Part shown: positions 18,342-31,629 of the stretch, in pieces | Numbering within the stretch: the stretch's first letter is position 1 | Layout: every line of letters begins with the position of its first letter | From: a virus | IMG/VR virus record: IMGVR_UViG_3300028388_004772 | Span: 64,001-128,000 of that record | DNA length: 64,000 nucleotides | Reading direction: 5' to 3' (one strand) | The notes under the pieces: model-generated | What the model saw: the letters and a program-made list of their open reading frames with translations, nothing else | Told to the model about the DNA's origin: nothing | The model's database searches: none | Program-made: the position numbers and the translations under genes

Positions 18342-18535
18342 ACGCAGATACCTGGTGTGAAAGTTTCTTCCCGAACAAGACGTGCTGTCGCTCTTAAATA
18401 GCCAGATACGCTGTCACACTTACGTGCAAGCTCCATACCCTTTTTCAGCGCGTTAAGTTTACAATCAGCTGAAATAATAAAAGACTCGTGGTAGCTGCAG
18501 TTGTAACCAGAAACCGTAACATCAAACTTACTCAT
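18338..18535 (-). CDS. Hypothetical early protein
   Basis: Behind an early promoter with GAAGGAGA RBS. Confidence 0.6.
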   Translation of the reverse strand: MSKFDVTVSGYNCSYHESFIISADCKLNALKKGMELARKCDSVSGYLRATARLVREETFTPGICV

Positions 18536-18537
18536 AT

Positions 18538-18598
18538 ATCTCTCCTTCATTTGATGTAGCCATTATCCTACATTATGAGAAAAAGAAAACATGTTTTT
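18538..18598 (-). promoter_or_regulatory. Repeated early promoter and leader, copy 2
   Basis: GTTTTC-N17-GATAAT-GGCTACATCAAATGAAGGAGAGA; nearly identical to the copy at 62575. Confidence 0.75.
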
Positions 18599-18629
18599 AT
18601 AAAAAAGAAATCATAAAGAAATTAAGTAG

Positions 18630-19250
18630 TTACGAAGCTTTTTTACCTTTACTATGAAGTTCTACCCTAACATTGTCGGAAACAGGGAACTTAATATTGT
18701 TGTGATTATGATGCAAAACGAATTCAACGTTATTAAATTCTTTGAACATATTTGTCCAGATTGGTCTCCAGTTGTTAGCCAACCGATTTGTATTCATATC
18801 ATCGCGAGGAGATGGAAGATAAAAATCTGTGCATGATCTTAGATTAAAATCAAACATCGAATCGAATCCCCACATATGAACAACATCTGGTTTAAACTTT
18901 GTACAACCAAAGTGAGTGCACATATGTCCACAATTGAAATCAGTATAGTTTGCAACATACTTAGGAAGTGTTAGATAGAATTCTTTGATCCTAGGGGCAA
19001 CCTTCATATAGAACCCTGGATTCTTTTCCATCCAAATCTTTGGTCTCATCCCAAGAATCCAGTTACCAGGAGCTTCAATCTCTCCTTCTGTGATTGCCTT
19101 CATCATTTTGAAGTCAACAATTACAGTTCCATATGCATTCTCTACAGGAAATGGTGGAATGTTACATGTGAGGTTTAGTCCTTTGCGAGGAGCCTCGTTA
19201 TAGAAATGAGCATTGTCACCATTGCCAACAATGTGTACAACCCTAGGCAT
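18630..19250 (-). CDS. Putative glycosyltransferase-like protein (GT29/Maf-like Rossmann fold)
   Basis: VHIVGNG...CN...NCGH...VHMWGFD pattern; last gene of the glycan island. Confidence 0.5.
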   Translation of the reverse strand: MPRVVHIVGNGDNAHFYNEAPRKGLNLTCNIPPFPVENAYGTVIVDFKMMKAITEGEIEAPGNWILGMRPKIWMEKNPGFYMKVAPRIKEFYLTLPKYVANYTDFNCGHMCTHFGCTKFKPDVVHMWGFDSMFDFNLRSCTDFYLPSPRDDMNTNRLANNWRPIWTNMFKEFNNVEFVLHHNHNNIKFPVSDNVRVELHSKGKKAS

Positions 19251-19884
19251 TCATTTGTCTCCTAATTTCATCCTTGCCTTTTTGACCTGTCCAGTGAGTT
19301 ACTAGCTCACCTTTTGGTCTGCGGCCATCAATAATATCTAATCTCAGCACATTGTACTTGTGTGGAAGGTCTTTTATATATGACATTTTTGTAATCGGAT
19401 TTAACATTGAGTGGAGAACTTCCTGGTCACCCCGAACAGATGTTTCTTCCACTTGCTGGGTCCACAGTTTAAGAATCTGTGGCTTACCTTGAAAGGCAAC
19501 AATTCCTGAATTGTGCCAAATCTCTTGTCTGCGTTTTGTCCAGGGATGGTCAATAACCATAGACAATTTCTCTGGTTCAACCTCTTTGAAGATACCACTG
19601 ATATCTCCGTGGACTTGACAATCTGTATCAATCCAACATGTTTTATCTGATGGACAATGAACCATTGATTTTGGTTTAAGAAACCACCCCTTTCCTTTAA
19701 ACTTTGACAAGTCTAAAACACCGACAGCTTTTGTTTGAATGTATTTTAACATATCGGAGGAGATACCAAAGTTTGCGAAGACCAATGGAGTATTATTATG
19801 TTTTTCATAGTTCTCCACAAACCAAGGTAACATCCATTCTGTATTCTCATCACATCCTGTTAAAAATGCTTCAGAGTATCTCAT
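19243..19884 (-). CDS. GT-A glycosyltransferase (GT8-like)
   Basis: WIDTD, NSGIV, GDQEVL, HWTG.KGK. Confidence 0.75.
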   Translation of the reverse strand: MRYSEAFLTGCDENTEWMLPWFVENYEKHNNTPLVFANFGISSDMLKYIQTKAVGVLDLSKFKGKGWFLKPKSMVHCPSDKTCWIDTDCQVHGDISGIFKEVEPEKLSMVIDHPWTKRRQEIWHNSGIVAFQGKPQILKLWTQQVEETSVRGDQEVLHSMLNPITKMSYIKDLPHKYNVLRLDIIDGRRPKGELVTHWTGQKGKDEIRRQMNA

Positions 19885-20512
19885 ATTTTTCACCATAATT
19901 ATGTTTTGCCTGACAGCCAACCTCATTCTGAATAGTCGTGAATGTGTCACGAGCTTCTACTGGCCACGGATAAAATTCTTTTAAGTTGGGAAAGTTATCA
20001 AGATTGATAAACACGTCTGTCGGTCCAGCACTTCTCAGTGCCTTATCAATTAGTTGTCGGGCTCCTGCAGGCTCAATATAATATCCATGAGCTCCAGGAA
20101 AGTATCTCTTGGAAACAAGAGGACCTTCTCCTAATACTTGAGGAGTATTGAACCGTCCATAAGAAGGCTTACCAAGATTAACAATTGAGCTCTGGAACAG
20201 AGATGGCAACGAGTTAACGAAAATTGCATCATGTTCAAGAATGACGAATGGTTCTTTACTCTCAGCACATTTTTCCCATAACGTAAAATGAGAAAGAAAT
20301 GCAGCCAAGCAATTATTAAATCGCGAATACTTTTCTTCGAAGTTGTCGATTGGTATTTGTTTTTCTGATGAAATCTTTACAGGACTATCACTTGGTGTAA
20401 ATGCCTTATGTTTGATTACATCAATACCAAACATCTTTCCAGACTGAATGCAGCGTTCAGCCGACTTTACTGATTTATCATTATCAAAGATTGTAATTAC
20501 ATATGCTTTCAT
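19871..20512 (-). CDS. Glycosyltransferase family 25
   Basis: AFLSHFTLWEKC...VILEHDA...GAHGYYIEPAGARQL. Confidence 0.85.
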   Translation of the reverse strand: MKAYVITIFDNDKSVKSAERCIQSGKMFGIDVIKHKAFTPSDSPVKISSEKQIPIDNFEEKYSRFNNCLAAFLSHFTLWEKCAESKEPFVILEHDAIFVNSLPSLFQSSIVNLGKPSYGRFNTPQVLGEGPLVSKRYFPGAHGYYIEPAGARQLIDKALRSAGPTDVFINLDNFPNLKEFYPWPVEARDTFTTIQNEVGCQAKHNYGEKYEIL

Positions 20513-21189
20513 GATGTTGTTGAGGGGGTTCCCTGTACCTTCGTATAAAATGTTTTTGTCACACCAAGCATGCTACCAACAAGTTGTCTACACATCAGTG
20601 CATCGTTTGGCCACGCTCCATACTCATCAACGAGCTCGAGCATTTTCCTAGCACCCTTTGGTTTAATTATGTAGGCTGAGTTTCCAGCGAGACCCTGAGG
20701 AACCGTAACCTCATCAATTGTCGGAACCTGTTGAATAAAGTCATTATTTTTTTGAATAAGTTCATAATATTGCTGAGATCTTCTCGTTGCACCAAGAGGA
20801 TTATTGATTCCAACAATTTGATACTTGTTATCCAATATTCTAAGAATATCAAGGTCTCTGACAAAAATAGCATCATGCTCAAGAATCATATACGGATCCT
20901 TACCTTGAGAACATTCCTTCCAAAGAATATAATGACTAAGAAAGCATGCAATCCGAGCCTTTGGGTTGGGTGTTTGGTATGGATTGAGTTTCAACCCTGA
21001 AGCAAAGTCAACTTTAGGGCTGTCCCAAGGATATGTCCATTTGATTCCATATTCTTCCATCAGACCATCAACCTGATCTGGAGTGATAGCATCAAATGTT
21101 TCAATGAAGATCTTTGTGGACTTCATGCATTTCTCAGCAGCCGCTTCAGAAACTTTATTATCTTTAATTACGATAATACTTGATTTCAC
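20509..21189 (-). CDS. Glycosyltransferase family 25
   Basis: ACFLSHYILWKEC...ILEHDA...GNSAYIIKPKGARKML. Confidence 0.85.
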   Translation of the reverse strand: MKSSIIVIKDNKVSEAAAEKCMKSTKIFIETFDAITPDQVDGLMEEYGIKWTYPWDSPKVDFASGLKLNPYQTPNPKARIACFLSHYILWKECSQGKDPYMILEHDAIFVRDLDILRILDNKYQIVGINNPLGATRRSQQYYELIQKNNDFIQQVPTIDEVTVPQGLAGNSAYIIKPKGARKMLELVDEYGAWPNDALMCRQLVGSMLGVTKTFYTKVQGTPSTTS

Positions 21190-21785
21190 TTTGTACCTTC
21201 GACAACAATCGATTCATGCTCACGCAAGCCATCAACTAGATCCACACCGTTCAACTCTTTGTGTTCACTTTCTGCATATGTACATTCTTTAACATCCTGG
21301 AAGCCAGCCTTCTTATGTTGATCGATCAACATCTCTAGGGTGGGTACCCAATAGTGACCTTGTTCCCCTAAACTTCTCTGTGCAATCTGATTGGCAGCTC
21401 CGAGAAATGTTTCTCGGTTGAGAATCCTGCGGCAATAATTTACTGTAAATTCAGAATGATCGTCGCGGTGTGTTTCATAGAATGTTCTACTAGGAGCAAC
21501 TGTACGAACAACACCTCCAGGCTTCAATACTCTTAAACATTCTTGTAAACAATGTAAACCATCTTTTTCATAGACGTGTTCAATCATATGCTCACTGAAG
21601 ATATAATCAATTGATTCGTCTTCAAACGGAAATTTCTCCGTCACATCAAGAAAGATAATTGTATATCCTTCCTTTCGTTTTTCCTCAAACCACGACAATG
21701 TCTTTTGTTTGGTAAATCCTTTCTGGTCAGTGTTAATCCACCCCAGCTTAGGTTCTCTACCACAACCCAGAACAACCTTTTTCAT
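21186..21785 (-). CDS. SAM-dependent methyltransferase (type 11)
   Basis: VLGCG, FPFEDESIDYIFSEHMIEH, RVLKPGG. Confidence 0.85.
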   Translation of the reverse strand: MKKVVLGCGREPKLGWINTDQKGFTKQKTLSWFEEKRKEGYTIIFLDVTEKFPFEDESIDYIFSEHMIEHVYEKDGLHCLQECLRVLKPGGVVRTVAPSRTFYETHRDDHSEFTVNYCRRILNRETFLGAANQIAQRSLGEQGHYWVPTLEMLIDQHKKAGFQDVKECTYAESEHKELNGVDLVDGLREHESIVVEGTK

Positions 21786-22439
21786 TTAAACTCCAAATTC
21801 TCTATCATACGATTGTACATCATTATTGTAAATTTGTCTACATCTACCAGCAACATGGACAACAGGAGCATGCTTTGAGTATTTTGTTTCTCTTAGAAAG
21901 CAACAATCGGATCTATCGATTTTGCGATATTTACCGAATGCCTGCTCAACCATTAGGTTCAATGCATATTGATCCCGTCCAGGTTTTGTATTCTTATATG
22001 TTTCCCTGTACTTCCTCGGATTCAATTCTCTTAACTTGTTAATTGAGTGTCTAGTAAATACAATAATTCCACTATTAAAATATTGGTTTCCCCATTTTAC
22101 AAACTCAGGTCGGGATTTAGGATGAGGATCATCAACCTCTTTACATGCGGAGAATTCATTATATTTTTCGAAGACATTTACATCTGTGTCACGAATAAAA
22201 ACATCAGCATCAACAAAGACGATTCTGTCATACTCTTCAAACTCATCTGATTCAAGGATTCGGAATACTTCCCATACAGGACTAAATCCTTTAAAGTAGT
22301 TATCAGATTTCAGTTGATAGTCCCACCCAATATTATCAGCATATCTTTTTACTGATCCCACTGCCTTAGTATACAACGATTGTTTGACTTCAGCTAGATC
22401 TGGTTCGACAGAAAAATGTTGTAAAATTAAATTCTTCAT
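21786..22439 (-). CDS. GT-A glycosyltransferase (GT8/GT34-like)
   Basis: FVDADV, YFNSGIIV, DQYALN, VHVAG. Confidence 0.75.
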   Translation of the reverse strand: MKNLILQHFSVEPDLAEVKQSLYTKAVGSVKRYADNIGWDYQLKSDNYFKGFSPVWEVFRILESDEFEEYDRIVFVDADVFIRDTDVNVFEKYNEFSACKEVDDPHPKSRPEFVKWGNQYFNSGIIVFTRHSINKLRELNPRKYRETYKNTKPGRDQYALNLMVEQAFGKYRKIDRSDCCFLRETKYSKHAPVVHVAGRCRQIYNNDVQSYDREFGV

Positions 22440-22440
22440 G

Positions 22441-23586
22441 TTACCACTTTGGTGAGTTTGTTACATTCTCAAACAGCATGTAGTCTTTACATTGTTCGGC
22501 AATGAACTTAACATCATCAATTAATCCTTCATTTAACGTAATTGGTTCAAAACCAAGAGACTTCAAACCTTCATTGACCACACTAAGGTCGTTGACAGGA
22601 GCTTCCTTACGAGGGTTGTCCATGTATTGAATTGCTGCTCCATACCTCGTTGCAATCATATCAGCCAACTCATTGACCTCTTGAACTTCAGAAACCTGGT
22701 TAAAGATTCTCACTCTTGAAGTATCTTCAGGTGGTGTCTGACAAGCTAACATTACACAGTTTGCTGTATCTTCAATATGGATAAACGCTCTCTTCTGGCC
22801 GCCTACACCATAAACTGTCAATGGATGATCTGCTGCAGCTTGAGAAATAAATCTATTCAGTACTGTTCCGTAAAGACCATCGTAATCAAATCTGTTAACA
22901 AGTAATGGATCGAGACGCGTCTCTTCTGTCTGTGTTCCCCAGACAATTCCTTGATGAAGATCCGTGATTTTCAATTTCCAGTTTTTGTTATAGAACTGAA
23001 AAAGAATCTGGTCGAGAGACTTCGTCATGTGATAGACACTACCAGGATTTGTTGGATATAGAATGTCCACCTGTTCATTAGTCTGGTTGACAGTGATATC
23101 CAAATATCCTTCCGGAATATCCCCAAACTCCTTTGAATAACCATAGACACCCATTGTTCCTAAATGGACAAGGTGAATATCTTGATCAACATCGACAATA
23201 GCATTTAATACATTATGTGTCGCCACCACATTATTATCAACTGTATATCGTCTCTCTTTGTTTGAAATCATTGAGTAAGGAGCAGCTCGTTGTTCCGCAA
23301 AATGAACAATTGTATCTGGTCTATGCTTCTTTACATGACCAACAAACTTCTCGTAGTCTGTAATGTCGACATTAATAAATTCAATATCAGCTTCGAGTAT
23401 TTGATTTGCTGTCTCGACGCGAGTAGTGATAGGAGAGATATTTGTTAACGAATTGCTTTTCGTTTCCACATCAATCTGTCGACGTGATAAGTTATCGAGA
23501 ATGAATACCTTATGACCATTCTTGGCTAGCTTTAACGCGGTTGGCCAACCACAGAATCCATCTCCTCCAAGTACAAATATTTTCAT
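22441..23586 (-). CDS. sqdB: UDP-sulfoquinovose synthase
   Basis: GGDGFCGWPTAL, HFAEQRAAPYSM, HLVHLGTMGVYG, PGSVYHMTK, TDLHQGIVWG, NRFDYDG.YGTVLNRF (SqdB/SQD1 signature). Confidence 0.93.
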   Translation of the reverse strand: MKIFVLGGDGFCGWPTALKLAKNGHKVFILDNLSRRQIDVETKSNSLTNISPITTRVETANQILEADIEFINVDITDYEKFVGHVKKHRPDTIVHFAEQRAAPYSMISNKERRYTVDNNVVATHNVLNAIVDVDQDIHLVHLGTMGVYGYSKEFGDIPEGYLDITVNQTNEQVDILYPTNPGSVYHMTKSLDQILFQFYNKNWKLKITDLHQGIVWGTQTEETRLDPLLVNRFDYDGLYGTVLNRFISQAAADHPLTVYGVGGQKRAFIHIEDTANCVMLACQTPPEDTSRVRIFNQVSEVQEVNELADMIATRYGAAIQYMDNPRKEAPVNDLSVVNEGLKSLGFEPITLNEGLIDDVKFIAEQCKDYMLFENVTNSPKW

Positions 23587-23599
23587 GCATTATTTCCTT

Positions 23600-24325
23600 T
23601 CATAAAAATGATCCGACCACAGACTTATCCGGATTTGCCCATCCAGAAAAACACCTATGGTCATTACCTCCACTGAGTACCTGCCACCAACCATACTCAG
23701 CAGCAATTAATTTCTTTTCTTCGTGCAGCTTATATACCCGATCAATATCCAACAGTTCATTAGGATGAACAATCAATTGATCAAATAGAAAATGATCATG
23801 ATAGTTATTATCTCGCTGCTCTCGTATCTTTGTGAATCCTGAATCACTAATTGAAAGACAGGCAAACCCTATTGCTCTTTTGTTTTGATAACTATCCTCG
23901 ACATATTGTTCAAACTTAGCATGTCGATATGTAAGTGTATCGTATCTACACCTGACTATTATATCATACTTTTGTGGTAAAGTGCTAACTAATTTACAAT
24001 GTGCAAGTATTTGTTTTGTTTGGTGAGAAGAAGTTTCCTTGAATTTTTGATTTGCCTTTGCATGACGTACAGCTTTAGCAAGTTTACCAGATTGCTCAGG
24101 AACCTCAATATCCAGAAACGGATGATAATCGATCTTAGGTTCATCAAAGAATTTCACATCAAAGTCTCGGAAGTACTTTTCAATGACAGTCTCATATCCT
24201 TTCCAGGCCCCATAATAAAAATCTGCATCAGGGAAGTTAATTTTGAGATTATCATAATTTCTTCTTAGGTCTCTGTTGTTTACTCCTGATCTGGGAGCAC
24301 CAGAGACACACACTGCTATATTCAT
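23600..24325 (-). CDS. Putative glycosyltransferase-like protein
   Basis: IAVCVSG.PR and YDIIVRCRYD motifs typical of glycan loci. Confidence 0.55.
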   Translation of the reverse strand: MNIAVCVSGAPRSGVNNRDLRRNYDNLKINFPDADFYYGAWKGYETVIEKYFRDFDVKFFDEPKIDYHPFLDIEVPEQSGKLAKAVRHAKANQKFKETSSHQTKQILAHCKLVSTLPQKYDIIVRCRYDTLTYRHAKFEQYVEDSYQNKRAIGFACLSISDSGFTKIREQRDNNYHDHFLFDQLIVHPNELLDIDRVYKLHEEKKLIAAEYGWWQVLSGGNDHRCFSGWANPDKSVVGSFL

Positions 24326-25095
24326 CGTAAATCTTTAAAGATCTTTGGTATCTGATATCTACTGTCGTTGACATAATGTGCAAAGTTACAAGGATAGTCC
24401 TCATTTCTTGTTGGGAATCTATTCCATTCAATTCCAAGCTCAAGGACATCAAAATTGTGTTTGCTCCACATTGCGTTCATGTATGGCTGATCCAAACAAT
24501 GTGAACTGTGGCCACCAACATTAACCCACTTCTTATCCAACCATGCGTTTCTAAATTCGAACCACTCCTCATGGTCAACAAACAGTTCTCTTGCTTTTAG
24601 CCTAGCCTGCTTTGACCATACCATTACACCTGAGTTGATCATCCTCAAAGGAGCATTTGTACTCTTCGCTGGAATGATCGGGGCTCCAAAATGAGCAAAC
24701 CTTTGTGTTAGTGGTCCTGATGGCTGCCAATTAATCTGAGCCGTGATGTCCGGGTGCCTCCACTCAGGCCAACCAGCAACATCAATTACAGGCAAGTTGA
24801 ACACGTTAACGTCCATGTTTTTCGGCATGACATCTACATCACAATACAATACATTCTCATACTGATCGAAGATAGGATCTTTAAATATTCTTGTCACTTC
24901 AAAGTAATTGGAACGAGACTCAACAAATCTGTCTGTCATGAAGTGATGGTCAGCATCATGTTTCTTAGCATATTCTTTGAAGTATGCAACTGAATATTCG
25001 GCCCACTCAGGCATTCCCTCTGTTGGGTAATGCCTGCTTTGTTTACCTATTCCATTGTAGTTTAGGTAATATTGGAAGATTGCATTCTTAGCCAT
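24322..25095 (-). CDS. GT-A glycosyltransferase (GT8/GT34-like)
   Basis: LYCDVDV, INSGVMVW, DQPYMN, NFAHY. Confidence 0.75.
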   Translation of the reverse strand: MAKNAIFQYYLNYNGIGKQSRHYPTEGMPEWAEYSVAYFKEYAKKHDADHHFMTDRFVESRSNYFEVTRIFKDPIFDQYENVLYCDVDVMPKNMDVNVFNLPVIDVAGWPEWRHPDITAQINWQPSGPLTQRFAHFGAPIIPAKSTNAPLRMINSGVMVWSKQARLKARELFVDHEEWFEFRNAWLDKKWVNVGGHSSHCLDQPYMNAMWSKHNFDVLELGIEWNRFPTRNEDYPCNFAHYVNDSRYQIPKIFKDLR

Positions 25096-25732
25096 TCTTT
25101 TTTAACTCTATAATAAAACTATCTGGTTCTCCGGTCTTCGATCTAAAGTCGTGTTCCGCCATTTCCAGATTGTATTCTTTCTTGAGATTATTCAACGAGT
25201 TGATAAACATATCTTGTTGAAATTGATTATACCTTTCAGGATATTTTTGAATCCAAGCATGCTTCATCTCACCCATTGTCATTTTATCTATCGGCCAAAC
25301 ATCTTCGATGACATATGTGCCTCCATCAGCAAGAAACGGAATAAAGTTCTCTAGTGTTTTCTTGTTTGCTTCCGGAAAATGAGCACCATCGTCGATAATA
25401 ATATCAAACTTTATATCACCAAATGATTTCATTGCCGCGGCAACTGATTGACTATCCATAGAATCACATTGAGCAAATGCCACAGGATCATTAGCAGCAA
25501 ATTTACCGCGACACTGTTCAATAGGGACACGTTGAAATAAATCAACCCCGTACAAAGATGCCTCTGGAATGCCCTCTAGGAATGCTTTGGTCGAATCTGC
25601 CTTGAACACACCAATCTCAAGAATATTGATTTGTTGACCACCATACACATCGATCAATGGTTGATAGAATATATCATAGCGATGCTTTTTACTTTTATCG
25701 CAGCCGTACTTATTAAATAATTCTTTAATCAT
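25088..25732 (-). CDS. SAM-dependent (sugar O-)methyltransferase
   Basis: CDK..H.Y, ILEIGV, FDIIIDDGAH, GGTYVIED. Confidence 0.85.
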   Translation of the reverse strand: MIKELFNKYGCDKSKKHRYDIFYQPLIDVYGGQQINILEIGVFKADSTKAFLEGIPEASLYGVDLFQRVPIEQCRGKFAANDPVAFAQCDSMDSQSVAAAMKSFGDIKFDIIIDDGAHFPEANKKTLENFIPFLADGGTYVIEDVWPIDKMTMGEMKHAWIQKYPERYNQFQQDMFINSLNNLKKEYNLEMAEHDFRSKTGEPDSFIIELKKNG

Positions 25733-25735
25733 ATT

Positions 25736-26572
25736 TCATTTCCTATCTGTGTGCATTAACATGAACACGTTATCCATCAAGTCTTGGTCAATTAATTTTT
25801 TAATCCACATTGGCTTATATTTAGCAAACGCTTTCTTAAAGAAAACAGGATCAATTCTCGTCTGAGATTCTAAAAAGCTTCCTCTGTCCCCTTGAGGAGC
25901 AAGAGTGCTGTCGACATTAATAATTTCGATTCTACAGTCGTCCTGAGTAATTAGGTAGTAGAAAAATAAAATGAAATCAAATGACTCATATGTTAATTTA
26001 GATCTGACATTCGGATTGTCATAATCAATGTATTCTAAAAAAGCATAGAACCTTTCGCGATCATATACAGGAACATCATTAAACCAAATATAGCTATGAA
26101 AGTTATCTGTTGTCTGTTTAATCTTCTCATAATCTTCTTCAATGAAGAAGTCTCTGGCAGTCCGGTTACCAATCATGTCATTGATTCCTCGGTTAACTAC
26201 CTTGCTCGCTGTATAGACCTTTTCATTGATTTGTTGTTTAAACAGAGCATCATAGTCTTTATTCATAATAAATTTAGAGTCAACATCGATAACAGCGACA
26301 TAGTCAAAGTCGGTGTTATTAAATACCCATCGAGCTCCAAACAACTTCTTCTGGGTAATTGGTTTTGAACCAAGAAGCTTTTCTGTACAGACAATAGACT
26401 GATATCTTAGGTGTTCTGTCTTAGATTCGAACAGATCCTTCTCATCTTTATTAGTGAATACGATAAACAGATCACTATCATCAAAGTGATTATTATATGA
26501 TTGTATAAATTCAATTCCACGATCCATGTGCTTTCCAACATGAATCGGTGCTACAAAACAAGAGTTTTTCAT
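25736..26572 (-). CDS. Putative GT-A glycosyltransferase
   Basis: VIDVD DxD motif inside the glycan island. Confidence 0.5.
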   Translation of the reverse strand: MKNSCFVAPIHVGKHMDRGIEFIQSYNNHFDDSDLFIVFTNKDEKDLFESKTEHLRYQSIVCTEKLLGSKPITQKKLFGARWVFNNTDFDYVAVIDVDSKFIMNKDYDALFKQQINEKVYTASKVVNRGINDMIGNRTARDFFIEEDYEKIKQTTDNFHSYIWFNDVPVYDRERFYAFLEYIDYDNPNVRSKLTYESFDFILFFYYLITQDDCRIEIINVDSTLAPQGDRGSFLESQTRIDPVFFKKAFAKYKPMWIKKLIDQDLMDNVFMLMHTDRK

Positions 26573-27915
26573 GTGTTATGTTTCAAATAAGTTTCTAAAT
26601 CTTCTGGTGTTCCTAGACCCCACATACCTGACGCTGTGTATGTTCGAATCTCTTTGTCATCTTCAATTGCCTGATTGAACACTGGACAAACATAGAATTC
26701 GTTATTGACTCGAATATCTTTTTCGATCATCTGTTCAGCATACTTGACAAAGTCAGAACCGTTTTTCCAATAGTAGTATCCTACCGTAGCATTATCCGAT
26801 ATTGGTTTCTTTTCGGCAACCTCTGTTACGCAACCTTTTTCATTTATTTTTGCAAATGACCATTTAGGATGAGTTGCCTTGAAAGTAACAATACCACCAT
26901 CAGCACTCTTTTCTTGCATATTGTACATAAACTCGATTGGATCCCATTCAACATACTGATCAGAGTTTGCAAAAAATAATGGTTGGTCATTATCAATAAA
27001 CTCTTTTGCAAGTAACGCTGTACATGCAGCCCCTTCAGTAATTCCATCAGTTTCCACTACTTTACAATCAGGGGCTATCAAGTTCAGCATTGTATCAAGC
27101 TGATATTTTTCTCTATGTTCTTTTTGTACAACAAAGATATAATTAGCATCCAAGCCAAGGTTGTCGACCACAACCTGAATCATTGGTTTGCCGTTTACAT
27201 CAATTAGAGGTTTAGGGAATGTGTATCCAGCCTGAGCAAATCTACTTCCAGCTCCTGCCATCGGAATCAAAACATTTAATTTATCATCAGACCATTTCTT
27301 TTGCATTGGTTCACCTTTCAAATGTGGAAATACTTTATCACAATTCACTTCATATGGATTTGCTACTCTGATATACTTAGCTCTTGATCTAGAGGCAGCT
27401 AATAGTCCTGGAGGAGAGTCCTCTATAATCAACGTTTCTTCAGGTAGGACACCCATCATCGACATTGCTTTCCAATAGATCTCAGGGTGTGGTTTTGAAT
27501 TCTTGACGTCATCATTTGATAAAATAATAGAACAATGTTCAATCAAATCAGTCTTGGCCAAAGCCGTCAGAGCAGTACGACGAATAGAATTAGTACAAAC
27601 CCCAATCTTATAATCGTGAAGCTCGAGCTCTTCAAATAAGATCTTGATATCTCGGATTGGCTTAAGTTCACTAAGCTTATCGATTGTCAGCGCTTGTTTC
27701 TTTTCAAAAATTGTTTGATGAAGATCGAGTGGAAGACCTTTTGTATCAGAAAGCATATCAAGCTTCTCACGAGTCTTCCTGCCATCATAAATATTATGAT
27801 GCTCATCATCTGTAATTGCGTACTGAGGTCCAAGAGCCTCATTAAGGGCCTCGTAATGAATTTGTTTGGCATCGATCAGTACACCATCTAAGTCAAACAA
27901 TACTAACTTGATCAC
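26569..27915 (-). CDS. HAD phosphatase fused to a sugar nucleotidyltransferase
   Basis: N-terminal FDLDGVL, KPHPEIY, IEDS; C-terminal IPMAGAGSRF...PKPLI...GLGTPEDL. Confidence 0.88.
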   Translation of the reverse strand: MIKLVLFDLDGVLIDAKQIHYEALNEALGPQYAITDDEHHNIYDGRKTREKLDMLSDTKGLPLDLHQTIFEKKQALTIDKLSELKPIRDIKILFEELELHDYKIGVCTNSIRRTALTALAKTDLIEHCSIILSNDDVKNSKPHPEIYWKAMSMMGVLPEETLIIEDSPPGLLAASRSRAKYIRVANPYEVNCDKVFPHLKGEPMQKKWSDDKLNVLIPMAGAGSRFAQAGYTFPKPLIDVNGKPMIQVVVDNLGLDANYIFVVQKEHREKYQLDTMLNLIAPDCKVVETDGITEGAACTALLAKEFIDNDQPLFFANSDQYVEWDPIEFMYNMQEKSADGGIVTFKATHPKWSFAKINEKGCVTEVAEKKPISDNATVGYYYWKNGSDFVKYAEQMIEKDIRVNNEFYVCPVFNQAIEDDKEIRTYTASGMWGLGTPEDLETYLKHNT

Positions 27916-28691
27916 ATCACGTCCTTCATCAGCTGATCAACGTTTTCTCCAGCATTGGGAAGCTTGTCCTTTAAGAAGAAGTGTACAAAATATGCTGAGG
28001 CTGGATCTTTGACTGCTGTGTATAAAGCATTCCATTTCCAGTTCAAATGTTGTTGTTTCATCTTCTCTTTACGTACCCAATAATTCAAAAGTGTTTGGTC
28101 TGTTGACCACTTCCAAGGTCCCTGTCCATCCACAAAGTCTTTGAACTCAGGTCTTGTGATAAAGTCCTTTGCCGGCTGGTTGATATACTTATAGATCGAT
28201 TTATTCATCACCATCAGACCCATGTTATAGAATTCAAATCCGTGCTTACCAGGATTGAAGTCAACTTTACCGTGAAGGGATTGGTATTGCATTCTTGAAT
28301 AGTTATCAATCTTTTGAGCATACCAAGGTTGGATTGGCATGTCACGCTCAATGACGCCAGCAAAGTCTACACTGGGATCAACGCTATCAAAAATATTAGG
28401 AGAACCAGGTCGAATCCAAATATCAGCGTCCACAATAGCAATTTGGTCGTATCGGTCAAAGTAATCGAACGCATTTTCTTTTTCGTAGATTGGTAGGAAC
28501 CCACCATGCTTTTCGTAGGACTCTTTAGATCGGTTGGTGGCAAATACATCTGGTTTGATCTTTAAGATCGGAGTACGTTGAACGATATGGTCGATCCCAT
28601 GACGCTCGCAGTACTCCGATACAGAATTAACACAACGGTCATATAATTTAGAAGGCTTACCAACGTAAACCTGGTATATCATTTGTTTCAT
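27912..28691 (-). CDS. GT-A glycosyltransferase (GT8/GT34-like)
   Basis: IVDADIW, YNMGLMV, TDQTLLN, WKWNAL, FVHFF. Confidence 0.75.
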   Translation of the reverse strand: MKQMIYQVYVGKPSKLYDRCVNSVSEYCERHGIDHIVQRTPILKIKPDVFATNRSKESYEKHGGFLPIYEKENAFDYFDRYDQIAIVDADIWIRPGSPNIFDSVDPSVDFAGVIERDMPIQPWYAQKIDNYSRMQYQSLHGKVDFNPGKHGFEFYNMGLMVMNKSIYKYINQPAKDFITRPEFKDFVDGQGPWKWSTDQTLLNYWVRKEKMKQQHLNWKWNALYTAVKDPASAYFVHFFLKDKLPNAGENVDQLMKDVM

Positions 28692-28701
28692 AATTACCTA
28701 A

Positions 28702-28866
28702 TTATCTATTTTTCCATTCAACGCATGTGTATGTATAGTTGCCGTCAAGCTCGCTTATCATAGCCTTACCAACTGATCTACACTGAGACCAATTAGTAAA
28801 GTGTCCTTGATCGTAAGCTACGACCTCACCTTTCGCGGTCAATAGCATTACGAGAAGTACCCACAT
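28702..28866 (-). CDS. Small secreted/membrane protein (54 aa)
   Basis: Manual translation MWVLLVMLLTAKGEVV...C...CVEWKNR; fills the gap. Confidence 0.55.
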   Translation of the reverse strand: MWVLLVMLLTAKGEVVAYDQGHFTNWSQCRSVGKAMISELDGNYTYTCVEWKNR

Positions 28867-29199
28867 TTATTTTTTCTTAGCTAACGCATCCGCTCCAAAG
28901 AATGCAGATACTAAAACTGCAATTGAAGCAAAGTAAGTTGGTGCAATATCAGCGATTAGCTGAGCTGCTGTATCTAAACCAAATGCGGAAGTCATAAAGA
29001 TTCCGATTGGGTAAAGTAAAAGTCCAAATAGTGCGAACCATGCCATTTTGCGAATAGCATCCCGCTGTGCATCTTGGTCTTCCATTTCTTTACGCTTGAA
29101 CTCAAGATACATCTCGTGTTCTTCATCAGTAACAATTCCATCACCATTACTATCGGCTGGATGAAAACCAGCCTTTTCAATTTCTTCTGCCATATCCAT
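28867..29199 (-). CDS. EF-hand-like loop plus two TM helices (holin-like membrane protein)
   Basis: DSNGDGIVTDEE loop, two hydrophobic helices, basic C-terminus. Confidence 0.55.
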   Translation of the reverse strand: MDMAEEIEKAGFHPADSNGDGIVTDEEHEMYLEFKRKEMEDQDAQRDAIRKMAWFALFGLLLYPIGIFMTSAFGLDTAAQLIADIAPTYFASIAVLVSAFFGADALAKKK

Positions 29200-29221
29200 C
29201 TCCTCTCATAGTGGATATAGT

Positions 29222-29229
29222 TATTTATA
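29222..29229 (-). promoter_or_regulatory. T4-type late promoter heading the glycosylation island
   Basis: Exact TATAAATA in the intergenic gap. Confidence 0.75.
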
Positions 29230-29230
29230 C

Positions 29231-30265
29231 TTATTCGTTAAACGTATATGTGAATACTCTGTTTCCAGTAGTAGCCCCAGCAACCGTACTATTATGAAAA
29301 TCAAAGGTGTTCACACCAGTTGTTCCAAATGGTGGATCGTATTCCAGATTCGGACTTGTTATGTTGTCCCCTCCGCCACCACCACTTGGTGTAACAGTTC
29401 CATTTATTACTGTGACGATAGGGTCTGCTGTATACGAGTGATATAGCCAAAGGAAATCAAGATACGCAACAGATGTATTCGAGAATGTGTATCTTTGATC
29501 ACCACTACTATTATAGGTTGTGGTACCAGGCATTTGTATCGAGCAGACAGTAGTTCCTGATGAATTTTTCATTAATATTGATCTAAAAGTAATGCTTGAT
29601 GGAAAGCTTGATTCGAGACCAGACAGGTCACTGTTTGGATTATCGGGCTCAAAACTTATTCTTACCTGAGATGCATATTGACCAAGTGCTAGGGTTGTTA
29701 CTCTAAATATATTAGTAACTGATGTGTGGTATACATCATCTCCTAAGGTAAATGTTTGTGTTGATGATGATGTTGTAGCTATTCCATCACTTGCTTGAAG
29801 TGCAAATGTTCGCGATTGTGCTGAAACACTTGCTGTTCTTGTAAATGAAAACGTGTCGCCCGATTGACCCGTCAATGTGAAGAGATCAGAAGAACCAGTT
29901 CCCAATATATAATCATATGATTGAATTCGAAGGCCATCAGGATCTGTAGCATTTACCACTGCCCTTAATGTATTAGCCGAACCAACCATTGGATGTGTAA
30001 ATTCTGTACCATCAGGAAATGTTACCGAAGAAATTGTTGGTGCAGTATTTGATGAGCTCAATCTAGCCCAACCATTACCAACTGAGACATACGGATTAGT
30101 AGTTGATGTAGTGTATGCAATTGTTCCAGCCGGCGATACAGGCAATAAACCTACACTATCGTACACATCAGTCGTTAGTGTTGCATCTGGTATGTTTTCA
30201 GCACCAAGAACTCCAGTACTATCTGCACCACCGAGGCCTCTTGCTAAATCTCTATTACGAGTCAT
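29231..30265 (-). CDS. Putative virion structural/fibre protein
   Basis: MTRNRDLA start, Ig-like NTAPTIS..ATDPDG, very rich in Ser/Thr. Confidence 0.65.
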   Translation of the reverse strand: MTRNRDLARGLGGADSTGVLGAENIPDATLTTDVYDSVGLLPVSPAGTIAYTTSTTNPYVSVGNGWARLSSSNTAPTISSVTFPDGTEFTHPMVGSANTLRAVVNATDPDGLRIQSYDYILGTGSSDLFTLTGQSGDTFSFTRTASVSAQSRTFALQASDGIATTSSSTQTFTLGDDVYHTSVTNIFRVTTLALGQYASQVRISFEPDNPNSDLSGLESSFPSSITFRSILMKNSSGTTVCSIQMPGTTTYNSSGDQRYTFSNTSVAYLDFLWLYHSYTADPIVTVINGTVTPSGGGGGDNITSPNLEYDPPFGTTGVNTFDFHNSTVAGATTGNRVFTYTFNE

Positions 30266-31629
30266 TAACGCTCTCTTAAAGTTGGTGTAAACGATGTTGT
30301 ATCTGACCAGTTGTCACCATACAATGGCTCTGTATATCTCACAGCAATTCCAGCAAATTTCATTGGTTCAAAAGGCGCAGCACCTGCATATGCATTATCC
30401 CCTCCGAATGTAAATCTTCTTGCATCCGCATTAAAGGTTCCCCTATTCAAGACAGCGGTATCTTCTTCATGAGTTCCGGATGCACCAATTTGTCCGAGAG
30501 AGGTAGTCATAAGTGTTCCATTGATAAAGTAATTAAATTCAATGCTATCAGCAGCACCATACATGTTAATTAAACAATGGTTCCAGGAATCATAATTAGG
30601 ATGATTCATATCCGGACCTCTATCGGCTCCACCACCACTACCATTACCATTGTATGAATAGCCATCACCATCACGTAAGAAAAACAGAGCGTCCGTCAGC
30701 CCGTCTCCATTACCAAACCACTTAGTTCTGATATTTTCCTGGCCATCGAATTTAAACCAAAACTCTAGAGACATTTGTTCATCATAATCATTACCAGACT
30801 GCATTCGTGCGGAGTCTGTCAAATATGCTGATCCGGATAATCTACCACCGATTGCAAATGCATTGTCTGTATTACCAGTATGCAGAACAGTTGTACCTGG
30901 GTAAGATGTGCCTCCACCAGTCAACTGAACAGTCTCTTTGGATACTGTATATGAACCAGCGTCATGAAGCCAAATATCCAAAGTATTAGACTCATCCGTA
31001 AATCCATTACTAATAGTAGCAGATTTAGTTCCAGCGGTTAACGCTGGCCCGTTCAATGCATACACATTGCGCATTGCAATCGGTCTTTGCTTTGACATTC
31101 TAATGGAGGGGGATCCAAATGTTGCAATATTGACACCATCTGAGACTCTGATAGTTAAATCCGTAACATTTACTTCAGCGGAATCATCCAATGTGACAGA
31201 AATACGGTTTCCGTCAATAGTATTTGATGTATATGAGTCAAATACCGAATTGGCTACAAGAGAATATGTCAAAGGTGTGCTATCAGCATCAGTAGCATTA
31301 ACAGTAATAATTGATGGGGATATGGCCGAGTCGAAAAAATAAATACTATCCTCAATATTCCAGCCATCTCCAAACGTCAATCCACTAATCGTAGGAGTAC
31401 TATTTACAGTACTCACCTTGAACCAACCCGAACCGTTTGTCATGTAAAGAGTATTGTTTGCTTCTGAGTATGCAATCTGGCCAGTTGTCAACCCTGTAAG
31501 AGGAAATGCACCCGCACTATCATATGATACTGGTGTACCAACTCCAGCATCTGGTGAAATAGCATTGGAGGTAAATTGACCATCAGGTGTGACTGATTTA
31601 GCTAGTTTGGATATCCGTCTGTTAGACAT
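30265..31629 (-). CDS. Putative virion protein with Ig-like and LamG/ConA-like domains
   Basis: NSTPTIS..ATDAD..LTYS; SLEFWFK...WNHC...YFING. Confidence 0.68.
   Translation of the reverse strand: MSNRRISKLAKSVTPDGQFTSNAISPDAGVGTPVSYDSAGAFPLTGLTTGQIAYSEANNTLYMTNGSGWFKVSTVNSTPTISGLTFGDGWNIEDSIYFFDSAISPSIITVNATDADSTPLTYSLVANSVFDSYTSNTIDGNRISVTLDDSAEVNVTDLTIRVSDGVNIATFGSPSIRMSKQRPIAMRNVYALNGPALTAGTKSATISNGFTDESNTLDIWLHDAGSYTVSKETVQLTGGGTSYPGTTVLHTGNTDNAFAIGGRLSGSAYLTDSARMQSGNDYDEQMSLEFWFKFDGQENIRTKWFGNGDGLTDALFFLRDGDGYSYNGNGSGGGADRGPDMNHPNYDSWNHCLINMYGAADSIEFNYFINGTLMTTSLGQIGASGTHEEDTAVLNRGTFNADARRFTFGGDNAYAGAAPFEPMKFAGIAVRYTEPLYGDNWSDTTSFTPTLRER

What the first reader, a model, noticed from the sequence alone, without database searches (positions are those of the whole stretch)
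18630..31629. Candidate virion sulfo-glycosylation system: a late-promoter glycan island with UDP-sulfoquinovose synthase next to structural genes
Seen: a TATAAATA late promoter (29222) heads a tightly coupled run of about eight GT-like genes, two methyltransferases, a HAD/nucleotidyltransferase fusion and a full SqdB. It sits directly downstream of two late Ser/Thr-rich virion protein genes. Known: SqdB makes UDP-sulfoquinovose, used for the sulfolipid SQDG and, via its archaeal homologue Agl3, for protein N-glycans. Inference: late timing and so many GTs fit decoration of the virion with a sulfonated, methylated glycan better than a simple phosphate-sparing lipid AMG. A competing idea is that one GT8-like gene acts as SqdD for SQDG synthesis.
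Basis: partly seen in the sequence, partly recalled or inferred. Interest (0 to 1): 0.8.

Follow-up and report, generated by a model that had tools for sequence, protein, structure and literature searches.

The report
Phage sulfo-sugar glycan operon, late-promoted
An uncultured marine T4-like phage, and dozens of its relatives, carry one tightly packed operon that joins an intact enzyme for the sulfonated sugar donor UDP-sulfoquinovose to many small sugar transferases, so it most likely builds an acidic sulfo-glycan rather than the classical sulfolipid; what receives the glycan (the virus particle or the host envelope) is still open.

Summary
On the minus strand a TATAAATA motif (29222-29229) heads 15 genes with no gap over 13 nt (29199 to 18630). 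They include a genuine SqdB/SQD1 homologue, three GT8-like paralogues, two GT25 enzymes, a Maf/CstII-like transferase, two methyltransferases and a HAD-nucleotidyltransferase fusion.

The promoter sits directly before a small EF-hand membrane protein, not before a transferase.

At least 30 IMG/VR contigs of marine T4-like phages keep the same core order. The two Ser/Thr-rich fibre-family genes upstream are not kept there.

A sulfo-glycan is better supported than sulfolipid:
- No GT4-type SQDG synthase and no Und-P, flippase or polymerase gene appears among 131 ORFs of 11 sister islands.
- Some sister islands add sulfotransferases and an APS kinase.
- The nearest cellular SqdBs lie in surface-glycan or sulfotransferase clusters.

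The acceptor is undecided. I put virion proteins at about 0.4, host lipo-oligosaccharide at about 0.3 and an SQDG-type glycolipid at about 0.1.

Glycosyltransferase islands in such phages are published. I found no paper describing SqdB inside them. This scan has already noted phage SqdB on other DNA, including one comparable T4-like island (e1-5360409).

The parts
31658..31665 (-). TATAAATA late-promoter-like motif before the 454-aa fibre-family gene; it overlaps the stop codon of the NT5C-like gene
30265..31629 (-). 454-aa Ser/Thr-rich (21.1%) fibre-family paralogue. Not part of the conserved island (a strain-specific cassette)
   Evidence: Shares an N-terminal module of about 170 aa with 7 fibre-region ORFs; S/T content; absent at this site in L001/L002; no Pfam or PHROG hit
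29231..30265 (-). 344-aa fibre-family paralogue, the most Ser/Thr-rich ORF of the genome (28.5%). Strain-specific cassette
29222..29229 (-). TATAAATA late-promoter-like motif heading the operon, 22 nt before the ATG of the 110-aa gene
   Evidence: a TATAAATA stands before the homologous gene block in 11 of 15 related loci
28867..29199 (-). 110-aa protein with an acidic N-terminus, an EF-hand-like loop (DSNGDGIVTDEE) and two predicted membrane helices. It is the conserved first gene of the block
   Evidence: Sequence read directly; 55-92% identical in 15 loci; no family hit
28702..28866 (-). 54-aa ORF with a hydrophobic N-terminus and two Cys; start codon abuts the stop of the previous gene
   Evidence: homologues in L001 and L026
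27912..28691 (-). 259-aa retaining GT-A glycosyltransferase of the GT8/GT24 clan, the most conserved transferase of the island. In many relatives it abuts or overlaps sqdB, so it is the candidate sulfoquinovosyltransferase
   Evidence: AF2 pLDDT 88. Foldseek: UGGT E 7e-9, PBCV-1 A64R E 3e-8. VIA: A64R Z 16.9, rmsd 3.0, 192 aligned; UGGT Z 15; LgtC 13.6; GlyE 13.5. 52-92% identity in 21 loci. Adjacency to sqdB
26569..27915 (-). 448-aa fusion of a HAD sugar phosphatase/beta-phosphoglucomutase-like domain with a sugar-1-phosphate nucleotidyltransferase. Variable part of the island
   Evidence: found only in L001/L002 among relatives
25736..26572 (-). 278-aa protein of unknown family with a DxD-like stretch (possible GT-A). 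Variable part
25088..25732 (-). 214-aa class I SAM methyltransferase (Methyltransf_24)
24322..25095 (-). 257-aa GT8-like paralogue of the 259-aa transferase
   Evidence: hhalign probability 95.8%, E 6.7e-9, 209 columns; blastp to 21786-22439
23600..24325 (-). 241-aa protein of unknown function (phrog_13607)
22441..23586 (-). SqdB/SQD1-type UDP-sulfoquinovose synthase, 381 aa
   Evidence: SQD1 (1qrr) E 1.6e-86 over residues 2-381. NF041015 scores 357.6 bits, the best family but under its 575-bit cut-off. GGDGFCG, T144, Y185, H186 and K189 are invariant in 29 viral and 20 cellular homologues
21786..22439 (-). 217-aa GT8-like glycosyltransferase (weak Pfam GT8 hit, paralogue of the two above)
21186..21785 (-). 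199-aa class I SAM methyltransferase (Methyltransf_11)
20509..21189 (-). 226-aa GT25 glycosyltransferase, conserved core
   Evidence: PF01755 E 4.4e-16; 33-94% identity in relatives
19871..20512 (-). 213-aa GT25 glycosyltransferase, conserved core
   Evidence: PF01755 E 5.5e-11
19243..19950 (-). Conserved protein of about 215-235 aa with a DTD stretch (possible GT-A). The listed GTG start overlaps the previous gene by 80 nt and is probably too far upstream
18630..19250 (-). 206-aa Maf/CstII-like (sialyltransferase-fold) putative glycosyltransferase, conserved last gene of the island. Also present in Phage C48C1
   Evidence: AF2 pLDDT 87. Foldseek: CstII E 6.8e-4. VIA: Maf 5mu5 Z 10.9, rmsd 3.6, 166 aligned; CstII Z 10.0. 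Atlas lead to MptE-like. C48C1 41.5% identity

Best explanation
This is one operon, probably transcribed late, that assembles an anionic oligosaccharide in the cytoplasm of the infected cell.

Proposed steps:
1. The phage SqdB converts host UDP-glucose and sulfite into UDP-sulfoquinovose.
2. The neighbouring retaining GT8-clan enzyme (27912-28691) most likely transfers the sulfoquinovose.
3. Two further GT8-like enzymes, two GT25 enzymes, a Maf/CstII-like enzyme and one or two further putative GT-A proteins extend the chain directly on the final acceptor.
4. Two methyltransferases cap sugars.
5. The HAD-nucleotidyltransferase fusion supplies one more activated sugar.

The island encodes no lipid-carrier, flippase or polymerase step, so the acceptor must be reachable from the cytoplasm. 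My preferred acceptor is one or more phage particle proteins, the Ser/Thr-rich fibre family being the obvious candidates. That would give the virion a sulfonated, methylated glycan coat.

Shown here: gene identities, operon structure, promoter motif and its conservation, conserved synteny, absence of an SQDG-type GT4.
Inferred: SqdB activity, which enzyme uses UDP-sulfoquinovose, late timing, and the acceptor.
For: SqdB:
- Full-length match to SQD1, with the T/YHxxK catalytic set and the NAD motif invariant.

Operon and promoter:
- 15 genes follow one TATAAATA with no gap over 13 nt and no predicted terminator on that strand.
- The motif is positioned before ORF starts genome-wide.
- It is kept before the homologous block in 11 of 15 relatives.

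Conservation:
- The core order (membrane protein, GT8-clan transferase, SqdB, GT8-like, GT25, GT25, 235-aa protein, Maf/CstII-like) is kept in at least 30 IMG/VR contigs, around a variable middle.
- Among 131 ORFs of 11 sister islands Pfam finds GT25 x22, GT8 x12, SDR x15, FkbM methyltransferase x7, sulfotransferases x4 and APS kinase x1. None of the 25 commonest families (40 matched in all) is a GT4, Wzx, Wzy or phosphoglycosyl-transferase family.

Links to glycans and to protein acceptors:
- The nearest cellular SqdBs (62-66% identity) form one clade with the viral ones. They lie in polysaccharide or sulfotransferase clusters.
- The best structural neighbour of the 259-aa transferase is the PBCV-1 capsid-glycan transferase A64R (Z 16.9). 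UGGT, GlyE, glycogenin and the Skp1 galactosyltransferase, all enzymes that act on protein-linked glycans, are also among the top matches.
- The last gene's best structural neighbour is the flagellin-glycosylating Maf (Z 10.9).
- The fibre family is Ser/Thr-rich and shows a marked Asp-Ser(-Ala) excess, 110 observed against 50.9 expected.

Against a DNA target: no ThyA-family hydroxymethylase was found in the genome.
Against:
- The promoter directly precedes a membrane protein and a small exported-looking ORF, which could tie the pathway to the membrane or be unrelated lysis genes.
- GT8, GT25 and a CstII-like enzyme together are the classic lipo-oligosaccharide outer-core toolkit (established knowledge of Haemophilus, Neisseria and Campylobacter). 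LgtC and CstII score nearly as well as the protein-glycan enzymes.
- The fibre genes next to the island are not conserved there.
- The Asp-Ser excess sits in regular repeats and may be structural.
- Read-through from the upstream NT5C-like gene could also give earlier expression.
- SqdB scores below the NF041015 cut-off. That model passes in only 1 of 14 control genomes.
Confidence: 0.4

Rival explanations
1. Host envelope remodelling. The same enzymes extend the host's lipid A-core (lipo-oligosaccharide) at the inner face of the inner membrane with a sulfoquinovose-containing, methylated outer core. Host MsbA/Lpt then exports it. This would mask receptors against superinfection or stop progeny from sticking to debris.
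For: - GT8 and GT25 are, in bacteria, mainly LPS/LOS core enzymes (Pfam names).
- LgtC scores Z 13.6 and CstII Z 10.0 among structural neighbours.
- No carrier-lipid or export genes are needed for LOS extension, and none are present.
- The closest cellular SqdBs sit in surface-polysaccharide clusters.
- The operon starts with a membrane protein.
- This is the published reading of glycosyltransferase islands in pelagimyophages and large cyanomyophages (PMC7029224; PMC12801897).
Against: - A conserved late-type promoter heads the block. In T4-type phages late genes are mostly particle, assembly and lysis genes (established knowledge).
- The core enzymes are conserved across many divergent phages. 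That fits a phage-encoded acceptor somewhat better than variable host cores.
- The best structural neighbours are enzymes that act on protein-linked glycans.
Confidence: 0.3
2. Sulfolipid or glycolipid synthesis. SqdB plus the adjacent GT8-clan enzyme act like SqdB plus SqdD and put sulfoquinovose on diacylglycerol. The product is SQDG, a phosphorus-free lipid, possibly extended by the other transferases into a larger glycolipid.
For: - SqdB is intact.
- The 259-aa transferase has a retaining GT8-clan fold, as an alpha-sulfoquinovosyl transfer requires. SqdD of Rhodobacter is glycogenin-like (my own knowledge, not tested here).
- In many relatives its gene abuts or overlaps sqdB.
- A membrane protein heads the operon.
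Against: - The pair never occurs alone. It is embedded in a 10-19-gene transferase island.
- No GT4 SqdX/SQD2-type enzyme is present.
- The viral SqdBs fall outside the clade of the common proteobacterial SqdBs.
- The nearest cellular relatives are in glycan clusters, not lipid operons.
- The nearest cultured relatives infect heterotrophs, and no psbA is present.
- Late membrane-lipid synthesis would save little phosphorus (inference).
Confidence: 0.1
3. DNA hypermodification. The sugar transferases decorate modified bases of the phage DNA with sugars, including sulfoquinovose.
For: - Phages commonly glycosylate DNA.
- Other notes of this scan propose SqdB with DNA-type (TAGT-like) transferases in jumbo phages (unchecked).
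- An NT5C-like nucleotidase gene lies just upstream.
Against: - No ThyA-family hydroxymethylase was found in the 141 kb held.
- The transferases are GT8, GT25 and Maf-like, not the DNA-type families.
- A late promoter is the wrong timing for DNA modification (the T4 glucosyltransferases are early genes, established knowledge).
- Eight or so transferases are far more than any known DNA glycan needs.
Confidence: 0.03

Closest known systems
UDP-sulfoquinovose synthases: Arabidopsis SQD1 (PDB 1qrr, 1i24), bacterial SqdB, Sulfolobus Agl3
   Same: Full-length homology (E 1.6e-86), the extended-SDR NAD motif, and the Thr / Tyr-His-x-x-Lys catalytic set.
   Different: It is encoded by a T4-like phage and sits in a transferase island with no SQDG synthase of the GT4 type. 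It belongs to a viral-plus-few-bacteria clade distinct from the common proteobacterial SqdBs. It scores below the archaeal-type NCBIfam cut-off.
Glycosyltransferase ('LPS-related') islands of pelagimyophages and large cyanomyophages (Zaragoza-Solas et al. 2020, PMC7029224; S-SCSM2R paper, PMC12801897)
   Same: Marine T4-like phages with hypervariable clusters rich in GT8 and GT25 enzymes, sugar epimerases and methyltransferases near fibre genes. The nearest cultured relatives by gp23 are Phage C48C1, Methylophilales phage Melnitz and Pelagibacter phage Mosig.
   Different: Neither of those two papers was found to mention a sulfoquinovose synthase (no word beginning 'sulfo' in PMC7029224; PMC12801897 did not come up in my sulfoquinovose/sqdB searches). 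None of 50,697 deposited phage records has an SqdB above 27% identity. Here the island has a fixed core, a conserved late motif and a sulfonated-sugar donor.
Chlorovirus PBCV-1 capsid glycosylation machinery (A64R and partners)
   Same: Virus-encoded small soluble GT-A enzymes and sugar methyltransferases that build a glycan in the cytoplasm. A64R is the best structural neighbour of the 259-aa transferase (Z 16.9, rmsd 3.0, 192 aligned).
   Different: Only 13-14% sequence identity, a eukaryotic virus, and no sulfonated sugar known there. Glycosylation of this phage's particle is not shown.
Mycobacteriophage virion glycosylation (Freeman et al. 2023, PMC10527164, seen cited in PMC12801897)
   Same: Phage-encoded glycosyltransferases proposed or shown to decorate capsid and tail proteins.
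   Different: Different transferase families, different hosts, only one or two enzymes, and no dedicated sugar-donor synthesis such as SqdB.
Lipo-oligosaccharide outer-core enzymes of Haemophilus, Neisseria and Campylobacter (LgtC GT8; Lic2A/LgtB GT25; CstII/Lic3A GT42)
   Same: The same three enzyme families work together. All are soluble or peripheral enzymes acting without a carrier lipid. LgtC and CstII are good structural matches.
   Different: Phage-encoded, late-motif-driven, and combined with SqdB. No CMP-sugar synthetase or NeuB was found in the genome.
Putative UDP-sulfoquinovose synthase in a Mu-like virus from the Cariaco Basin (Mara et al. 2020, PMC7785012)
   Same: A viral SqdB-like gene, interpreted by its authors in terms of glycosylation.
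   Different: A different phage type (Mu-like, temperate), a single gene, and no transferase operon described.

Membership tests
UDP-sulfoquinovose synthase (SQD1/SqdB/Agl3) | Extended-SDR fold with an N-terminal GxxGxxG NAD-binding motif | tested here: met
   Pfam Epimerase E 4.6e-27. GGDGFCG at residues 7-13; G7, D9, G10, F11, C12 and G13 are invariant in 29 viral and 20 cellular homologues, and residue 8 is Ala in 4 viral ones.
UDP-sulfoquinovose synthase (SQD1/SqdB/Agl3) | Catalytic Thr, Tyr and Lys, plus the His next to the Tyr that marks SQD1 (T145, Y182, H183, K186 in SQD1, from my knowledge of the SQD1 structure papers) | tested here: met
   T144, Y185, H186 and K189 align with LGTMG and YHxxK of 1qrr. 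All are invariant in every homologue examined.
UDP-sulfoquinovose synthase (SQD1/SqdB/Agl3) | End-to-end similarity to a characterised member, well above other sugar SDRs | tested here: met
   1qrr E 1.6e-86 over residues 2-381. The next family (UDP-glucuronate decarboxylase) scores E 1e-10.
UDP-sulfoquinovose synthase (SQD1/SqdB/Agl3) | Score over the curated cut-off of NCBIfam NF041015 (equivalog) | tested here: not met
   357.6 bits against a cut-off of 575. Only 1 of 14 control genomes passes that cut-off, and the model 'rings' without passing in 11 others, Synechococcus elongatus among them. The model is therefore narrower than the enzyme family.
UDP-sulfoquinovose synthase (SQD1/SqdB/Agl3) | Makes UDP-sulfoquinovose from UDP-glucose and sulfite | not testable with these tools
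   Needs an enzyme assay.
SQDG (sulfolipid) pathway | An SQDG synthase of the GT4 type (SqdX/SQD2) encoded with sqdB | tested here: not met
   No GT4 family in the island, nor among the 25 commonest of the 40 Pfam families matched by 131 ORFs of 11 sister islands. By contrast, a common-type Rhodobacteraceae sqdB has a GT4-like neighbour.
SQDG (sulfolipid) pathway | An SqdD-type (GT8, glycogenin-like) sulfoquinovosyltransferase | tested here: inconclusive
   The 259-aa protein has a GT8-clan retaining fold. No reference SqdD sequence could be obtained: the neighbours of sqdB in the cellular loci examined did not match its profile.
T4-type late transcription unit | TATAAATA at the -10 position, a short distance before the gene | tested here: met
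   Motif at 29222-29229, 22 nt before the ATG. The motif is enriched (11 against 4.3 expected) and biased in strand and position.
T4-type late transcription unit | The motif is conserved in relatives | tested here: met
   11 of 15 related loci have a TATAAATA before the homologous block.
T4-type late transcription unit | Transcription late in infection | not testable with these tools
A time course in a cultured host is needed.
Und-P-dependent O-antigen or capsule pathway | An initiating phosphoglycosyl transferase, a flippase or ABC exporter, and a polymerase | tested here: not met
   None in the island, and none among the 25 commonest of the 40 Pfam families matched in 11 sister islands. The Neptuniibacter cluster holding the nearest cellular SqdB does have Bac_transf and Polysacc_synt_2.
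Glycosyltransferase family 25 | Pfam PF01755 over its gathering score | tested here: met
   59.8 and 43.1 bits against a cut-off of 24.
Glycosyltransferase family 8 (clan with GT24) | Pfam PF01501 over its gathering score | tested here: not met
   Only 21786-22439 hits, at 21.6 bits against a cut-off of 24.3. The relation rests on fold, paralogy and Atlas clusters in which 12-13% of members carry GT8. I therefore call these proteins GT8-like, not GT8 members.
Maf / CstII (GT42-like) transferases | Sialyltransferase-type fold with the N-terminal nucleotide-binding GNG motif | tested here: inconclusive
   Maf 5mu5 Z 10.9 and CstII Z 10.0, which count as tied. Foldseek E 6.8e-4 with TM 0.44. H6-x-x-G9-N10-G11 is invariant. 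No Pfam hit. No CMP-sugar pathway in the genome.
Virion glycosylation systems (chlorovirus, mycobacteriophage) | A glycan covalently bound to particle proteins | not testable with these tools
   Needs glycoproteomics of purified particles.

The most novel reading that the evidence does not exclude
Marine T4-like phages of heterotrophic bacteria coat their fibres, or other particle proteins, with a self-made O-glycan that contains sulfoquinovose and methylated sugars. The glycan is built in the cytoplasm by a late operon and possibly attached at the over-represented Asp-Ser(-Ala) sites. This would be the first sulfonated glycan on any virus particle. It would also be a source of sulfoquinovose made in non-phototrophic cells.
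Probability: 0.3. Interest if true: 0.85.

Novelty: new variant of a known kind. Interest (0 to 1): 0.62.

Why it matters
Sulfoquinovose is treated as a product of phototroph membranes and as a major organosulfur currency in the sea (review PMC13436972). Here an intact synthase travels in a conserved operon of abundant uncultured T4-like phages. By capsid gene, their nearest cultured relatives infect heterotrophs. The protein search returned 8,000 homologues (its scoring limit), and the 120 best are 67-97% identical.

If the pathway is active:
- Infected heterotrophs would make a sulfonated sugar for a glycan rather than for a lipid.
- Phage particles or infected cell surfaces would carry a strongly acidic, protease- and lectin-relevant coat that could affect adsorption, host range, grazing and stickiness.
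- A second biological source of sulfoquinovose would have to be added to sulfur budgets.

It also gives a concrete, testable case for the long-standing question of what the many 'LPS-like' glycosyltransferases of marine myophages act on.

Tried and rejected
Searches and comparisons that found nothing:
- Megablast of the 13-kb region against deposited phages gave no match.
- tblastn of the 454-aa and 259-aa proteins against phages gave no match.
- Profile searches of the 259-aa and 206-aa families against PDB sequences gave nothing useful.
- PHROGs gave no function for any of the ten proteins searched, which include the two fibre-like genes; two had only unknown-function hits.
- Attempts to obtain an SqdD reference failed.
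- An alignment of the 235-aa family failed on a stop codon in one reference and was not repeated.

Readings rejected or downgraded:
- A cyanophage AMG reading: no psbA, and the nearest cultured relatives by gp23 infect heterotrophs.
- DNA glycosylation: no ThyA-family enzyme, and wrong enzyme families and timing.
- A phage-encoded sulfite supply: no PAPS-reductase family gene.
- A phage-encoded nonulosonic-acid donor for the Maf/CstII-like enzyme: no NeuB or CTP_transf_3.
- The idea that the two upstream fibre genes are the dedicated substrates because they are adjacent: the adjacency is not conserved.
- The sigma-70 promoter scan is uninformative (53 sites found against 52.7 expected).

Full report
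**What the window is.** The window is bases 64001-128000 of a single 141,247-bp IMG/VR virus record with 39.6% G+C. CheckV estimates it 84% complete. It has a T4-type major capsid gene. The nearest deposited relatives of that gene are Phage C48C1, the Methylophilales phages Melnitz, Pelagibacter phage Mosig and uncultured marine viruses; cyanomyophages come next. No psbA was found. It therefore belongs to the marine T4-like phages related to those that infect streamlined heterotrophs. The host itself is unknown.

**Checking the observation.** The TATAAATA motif is at 29222-29229 on the minus strand. The window holds 11 such motifs against 4.3 expected, and 0 of 100 shuffles reach 11. In the whole genome 20 of 22 motifs lie on the gene strand, and most are 5-40 nt before an ORF start. 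The motif behaves like the T4-type late promoter.

This copy lies 22 nt before a 110-aa gene (28867-29199). That protein has an acidic N-terminus, an EF-hand-like loop and two hydrophobic helices. A 54-aa ORF follows (28702-28866), and then 13 enzyme genes run down to 18630. No gap exceeds 13 nt, many genes overlap, and no terminator-like site is predicted on that strand. After 18630 comes an AT-rich spacer of about 95 nt with promoter-like hexamers before the next small gene. The unit is therefore 15 genes and 10.6 kb long.

**What the genes are.**
- The 381-aa protein (22441-23586) is a genuine SQD1/SqdB homologue. It matches 1qrr at E 1.6e-86 over residues 2-381, while the next SDR family scores E 1e-10. 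The NAD motif and T144, Y185, H186 and K189, which correspond to the SQD1 catalytic set, are invariant in 29 viral and 20 cellular homologues.
- It falls short of the NCBIfam NF041015 cut-off (357.6 against 575 bits). That model passes in only one of 14 control genomes.
- Two genes are GT25.
- Three genes are mutually related GT8-like proteins.
- For the best conserved of these (27912-28691) an AlphaFold model built on 22 homologues (pLDDT 88) matches retaining GT-A enzymes of the GT8/GT24 clan. The matches are PBCV-1 A64R (Z 16.9, rmsd 3.0, 192 aligned), UGGT catalytic domains (Z about 15), LgtC (13.6), GlyE (13.5) and glycogenin (about 13).
- The last gene (18630-19250; pLDDT 87) resembles the flagellin glycosyltransferase Maf (Z 10.9) and the sialyltransferase CstII (Z 10.0).
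- Two class I methyltransferases and a fusion of a HAD sugar phosphatase/mutase with a nucleotidyltransferase are confirmed.
- Two further proteins show only a DxD-type stretch, and one is unknown.

**The two upstream genes.** They are the most Ser/Thr-rich (28.5%) and among the more Ser/Thr-rich (21.1%) ORFs of the genome, whose mean is 13.7%. Their own TATAAATA is at 31658-31665. They share an N-terminal module of about 170 aa with seven ORFs in the fibre region of the genome. 'Fibre-family protein' is therefore a reasonable inference, although Pfam and PHROGs are silent.

**Relatives.** A pattern scan of IMG/VR returned 39 loci with SqdB at 56-96% identity. Mapping the island proteins onto them shows a conserved order: NT5C-like gene, TATAAATA, membrane protein, 259-aa transferase, (variable genes), SqdB, (variable GT8-like genes), GT25, GT25, 235-aa protein, Maf/CstII-like protein.
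- In many loci the 259-aa gene abuts or overlaps sqdB.
- The HAD-nucleotidyltransferase fusion, the 278-aa and 241-aa proteins and one methyltransferase are found only in this phage and its 95% relatives.
- The two fibre-family genes are absent from that site in those same 95% relatives and in most other loci. Only L026 has a related insert.
- A TATAAATA stands before the block in 11 of 15 loci.
- A Pfam tally of 131 ORFs from 11 sister islands gives GT25 x22, SDR x15, GT8 x12, FkbM methyltransferase x7, four sulfotransferases and one APS kinase. None of the 25 commonest of the 40 families matched is a GT4, flippase, polymerase or initiating-transferase family.
- None of 50,697 deposited phage records has an SqdB above 27% identity. 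Phage C48C1 has a different glycan island at the same place, sharing only the Maf/CstII-like gene and one GT8-like gene.

**Cellular relatives of SqdB.** The closest are at 62-66% identity: Neptuniibacter, Luminiphilus, a Halomonas MAG and two Rhodobacteraceae. A 44-kb contig binned as a 'Bacteroidetes MAG' is really a phage contig carrying the same island.
- In a maximum-likelihood tree these five cellular sequences form one clade (100/99) inside the viral radiation. The joint viral-plus-cellular clade has 94/90 support. It is separate from the 12 common proteobacterial SqdBs (100/99). No cyanobacterial, plant or archaeal sequence could be included.
- In Neptuniibacter the gene lies among GT4, GT2, SDR, Bac_transf and Polysacc_synt_2 genes, which is a surface-polysaccharide cluster.
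- In one Rhodobacteraceae genome it lies beside two Stf0-type sulfotransferases and a GT4-GT2 fusion.
- SqdB-like genes were found in 20 of 400 sampled genomes of Neptuniibacter's class and in 47 of 251 sampled genomes of the family of the Rhodobacteraceae MAG.

**Interpretation.** The evidence favours a sulfonated glycan over the classical sulfolipid. The synthase never travels with a GT4 SQDG synthase. It is always inside a multi-transferase operon, sister islands add sulfate chemistry, and its nearest cellular kin are in glycan clusters.

All enzymes are small soluble GT-A-type proteins, and no carrier-lipid or export function is encoded. The glycan must therefore be built directly on an acceptor reachable from the cytoplasm: a phage protein, the host lipid A-core, or a membrane lipid.
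- For a phage protein: the conserved late motif, the fixed core across divergent phages, and best structural neighbours that act on protein-linked glycans (A64R, UGGT, GlyE, glycogenin, Maf).
- For the host core: GT8 + GT25 + CstII-like is the textbook lipo-oligosaccharide toolkit, the operon begins with a membrane protein, and this is the published reading for such islands (PMC7029224, PMC12801897).
- DNA is unlikely: no ThyA-family enzyme, and wrong enzyme families and timing.

I put the virion reading at about 0.4, host envelope at about 0.3, SQDG-type glycolipid at about 0.1 and DNA at about 0.03.

**A side test.** Following an earlier first-reader note, I tested the dipeptide Asp-Ser. It is the most over-represented dipeptide in 11 fibre proteins (110 observed, 50.9 expected). 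Ala follows in 43 of 110 cases, and the 1406-aa fibre alone has 40 against 10.1 expected. The sites sit in regular repeats such as (V/I)DSAYVQxR. They may be structural rather than a sequon, so I treat this as a lead only.

**Literature.** Glycosyltransferase islands in pelagimyophages and large cyanomyophages are described and read as host surface modification. A putative UDP-sulfoquinovose synthase has been reported once in a virus, a Mu-like element from the Cariaco Basin. Searches combining sulfoquinovose or sqdB with phage, viral or auxiliary metabolic genes found no description of this operon. Within this scan, phage SqdB has been noted in at least 29 genomes, including one comparable marine T4-like island. 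Those notes are unchecked and I did not use them as evidence.

**Verdict.** The sulfo-glycan interpretation is supported, and the virion target is plausible but unproven. This is a new variant (a sulfoquinovose-donor-bearing, late-motif-driven, conserved core) of a known kind of phage glycan island.

Noticed in passing
window 28867-29199 and 28702-28866 (minus strand): The first two genes after the late motif are not enzymes. One is a 110-aa protein with a canonical-looking EF-hand loop (DSNGDGIVTDEE) and two membrane helices. The other is a 54-aa protein with a hydrophobic N-terminus and two Cys. They are conserved in relatives and could be lysis-type or membrane-anchoring proteins.
   Followed up: partly
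G000 genome 15520-40090 and window 29231-31629: Nine ORFs share an N-terminal module of about 170 aa with variable C-termini (a fibre-like paralogue family). Across 11 fibre proteins Asp-Ser is the most over-represented dipeptide (110 against 50.9 expected). It is followed by Ala in 39% of cases, often within (V/I)DSAYVQxR-type repeats.
   Followed up: partly
L041 (Neptuniibacter), L073 (G452), L077 (Luminiphilus): A small, taxonomically scattered set of marine bacteria carries the phage-type SqdB inside surface-polysaccharide or Stf0-sulfotransferase clusters. In the tree it forms one clade nested within the viral radiation, which suggests transfer between phages and bacteria. The direction is not resolved.
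   Followed up: partly
L040 (JAHEGS010000004.1, 'Bacteroidetes MAG' contig of 44 kb): This contig carries the same phage island (membrane protein, 259-aa transferase, SqdB, GT25 pair). It is very probably a phage contig binned into a bacterial MAG.
   Followed up: partly
L046 / L057-L058 (Luminiphilus syltensis, second sqdB copy): The second SqdB-like copy, about 24 kb from the first, is split into two frames (residues 1-253 and 261-381). It is probably a frameshifted pseudogene.
   Followed up: no
L011, L025, L027, L031 and other sister islands: Some sister islands add sulfotransferases, an APS kinase, radical-SAM/B12 proteins, cytidylyltransferase-like proteins, a GAPDH and a mannose-6-phosphate isomerase to the SqdB core. 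The variable middle therefore explores more sulfate and sugar chemistry.
   Followed up: partly
window 18535-18629: An AT-rich spacer with sigma-70-like hexamers (CATAAT, TAGGATAAT) follows the last island gene and precedes a small ORF. It marks the downstream end of the operon and looks like a separate promoter.
   Followed up: no
L053 (Phage C48C1, OQ984149.1 88723-117340): The closest cultured relative has, at the equivalent place, a different glycan island with a Nol-like carbamoyltransferase and other transferases. It shares only the Maf/CstII-like gene and one GT8-like gene with this island.
   Followed up: partly
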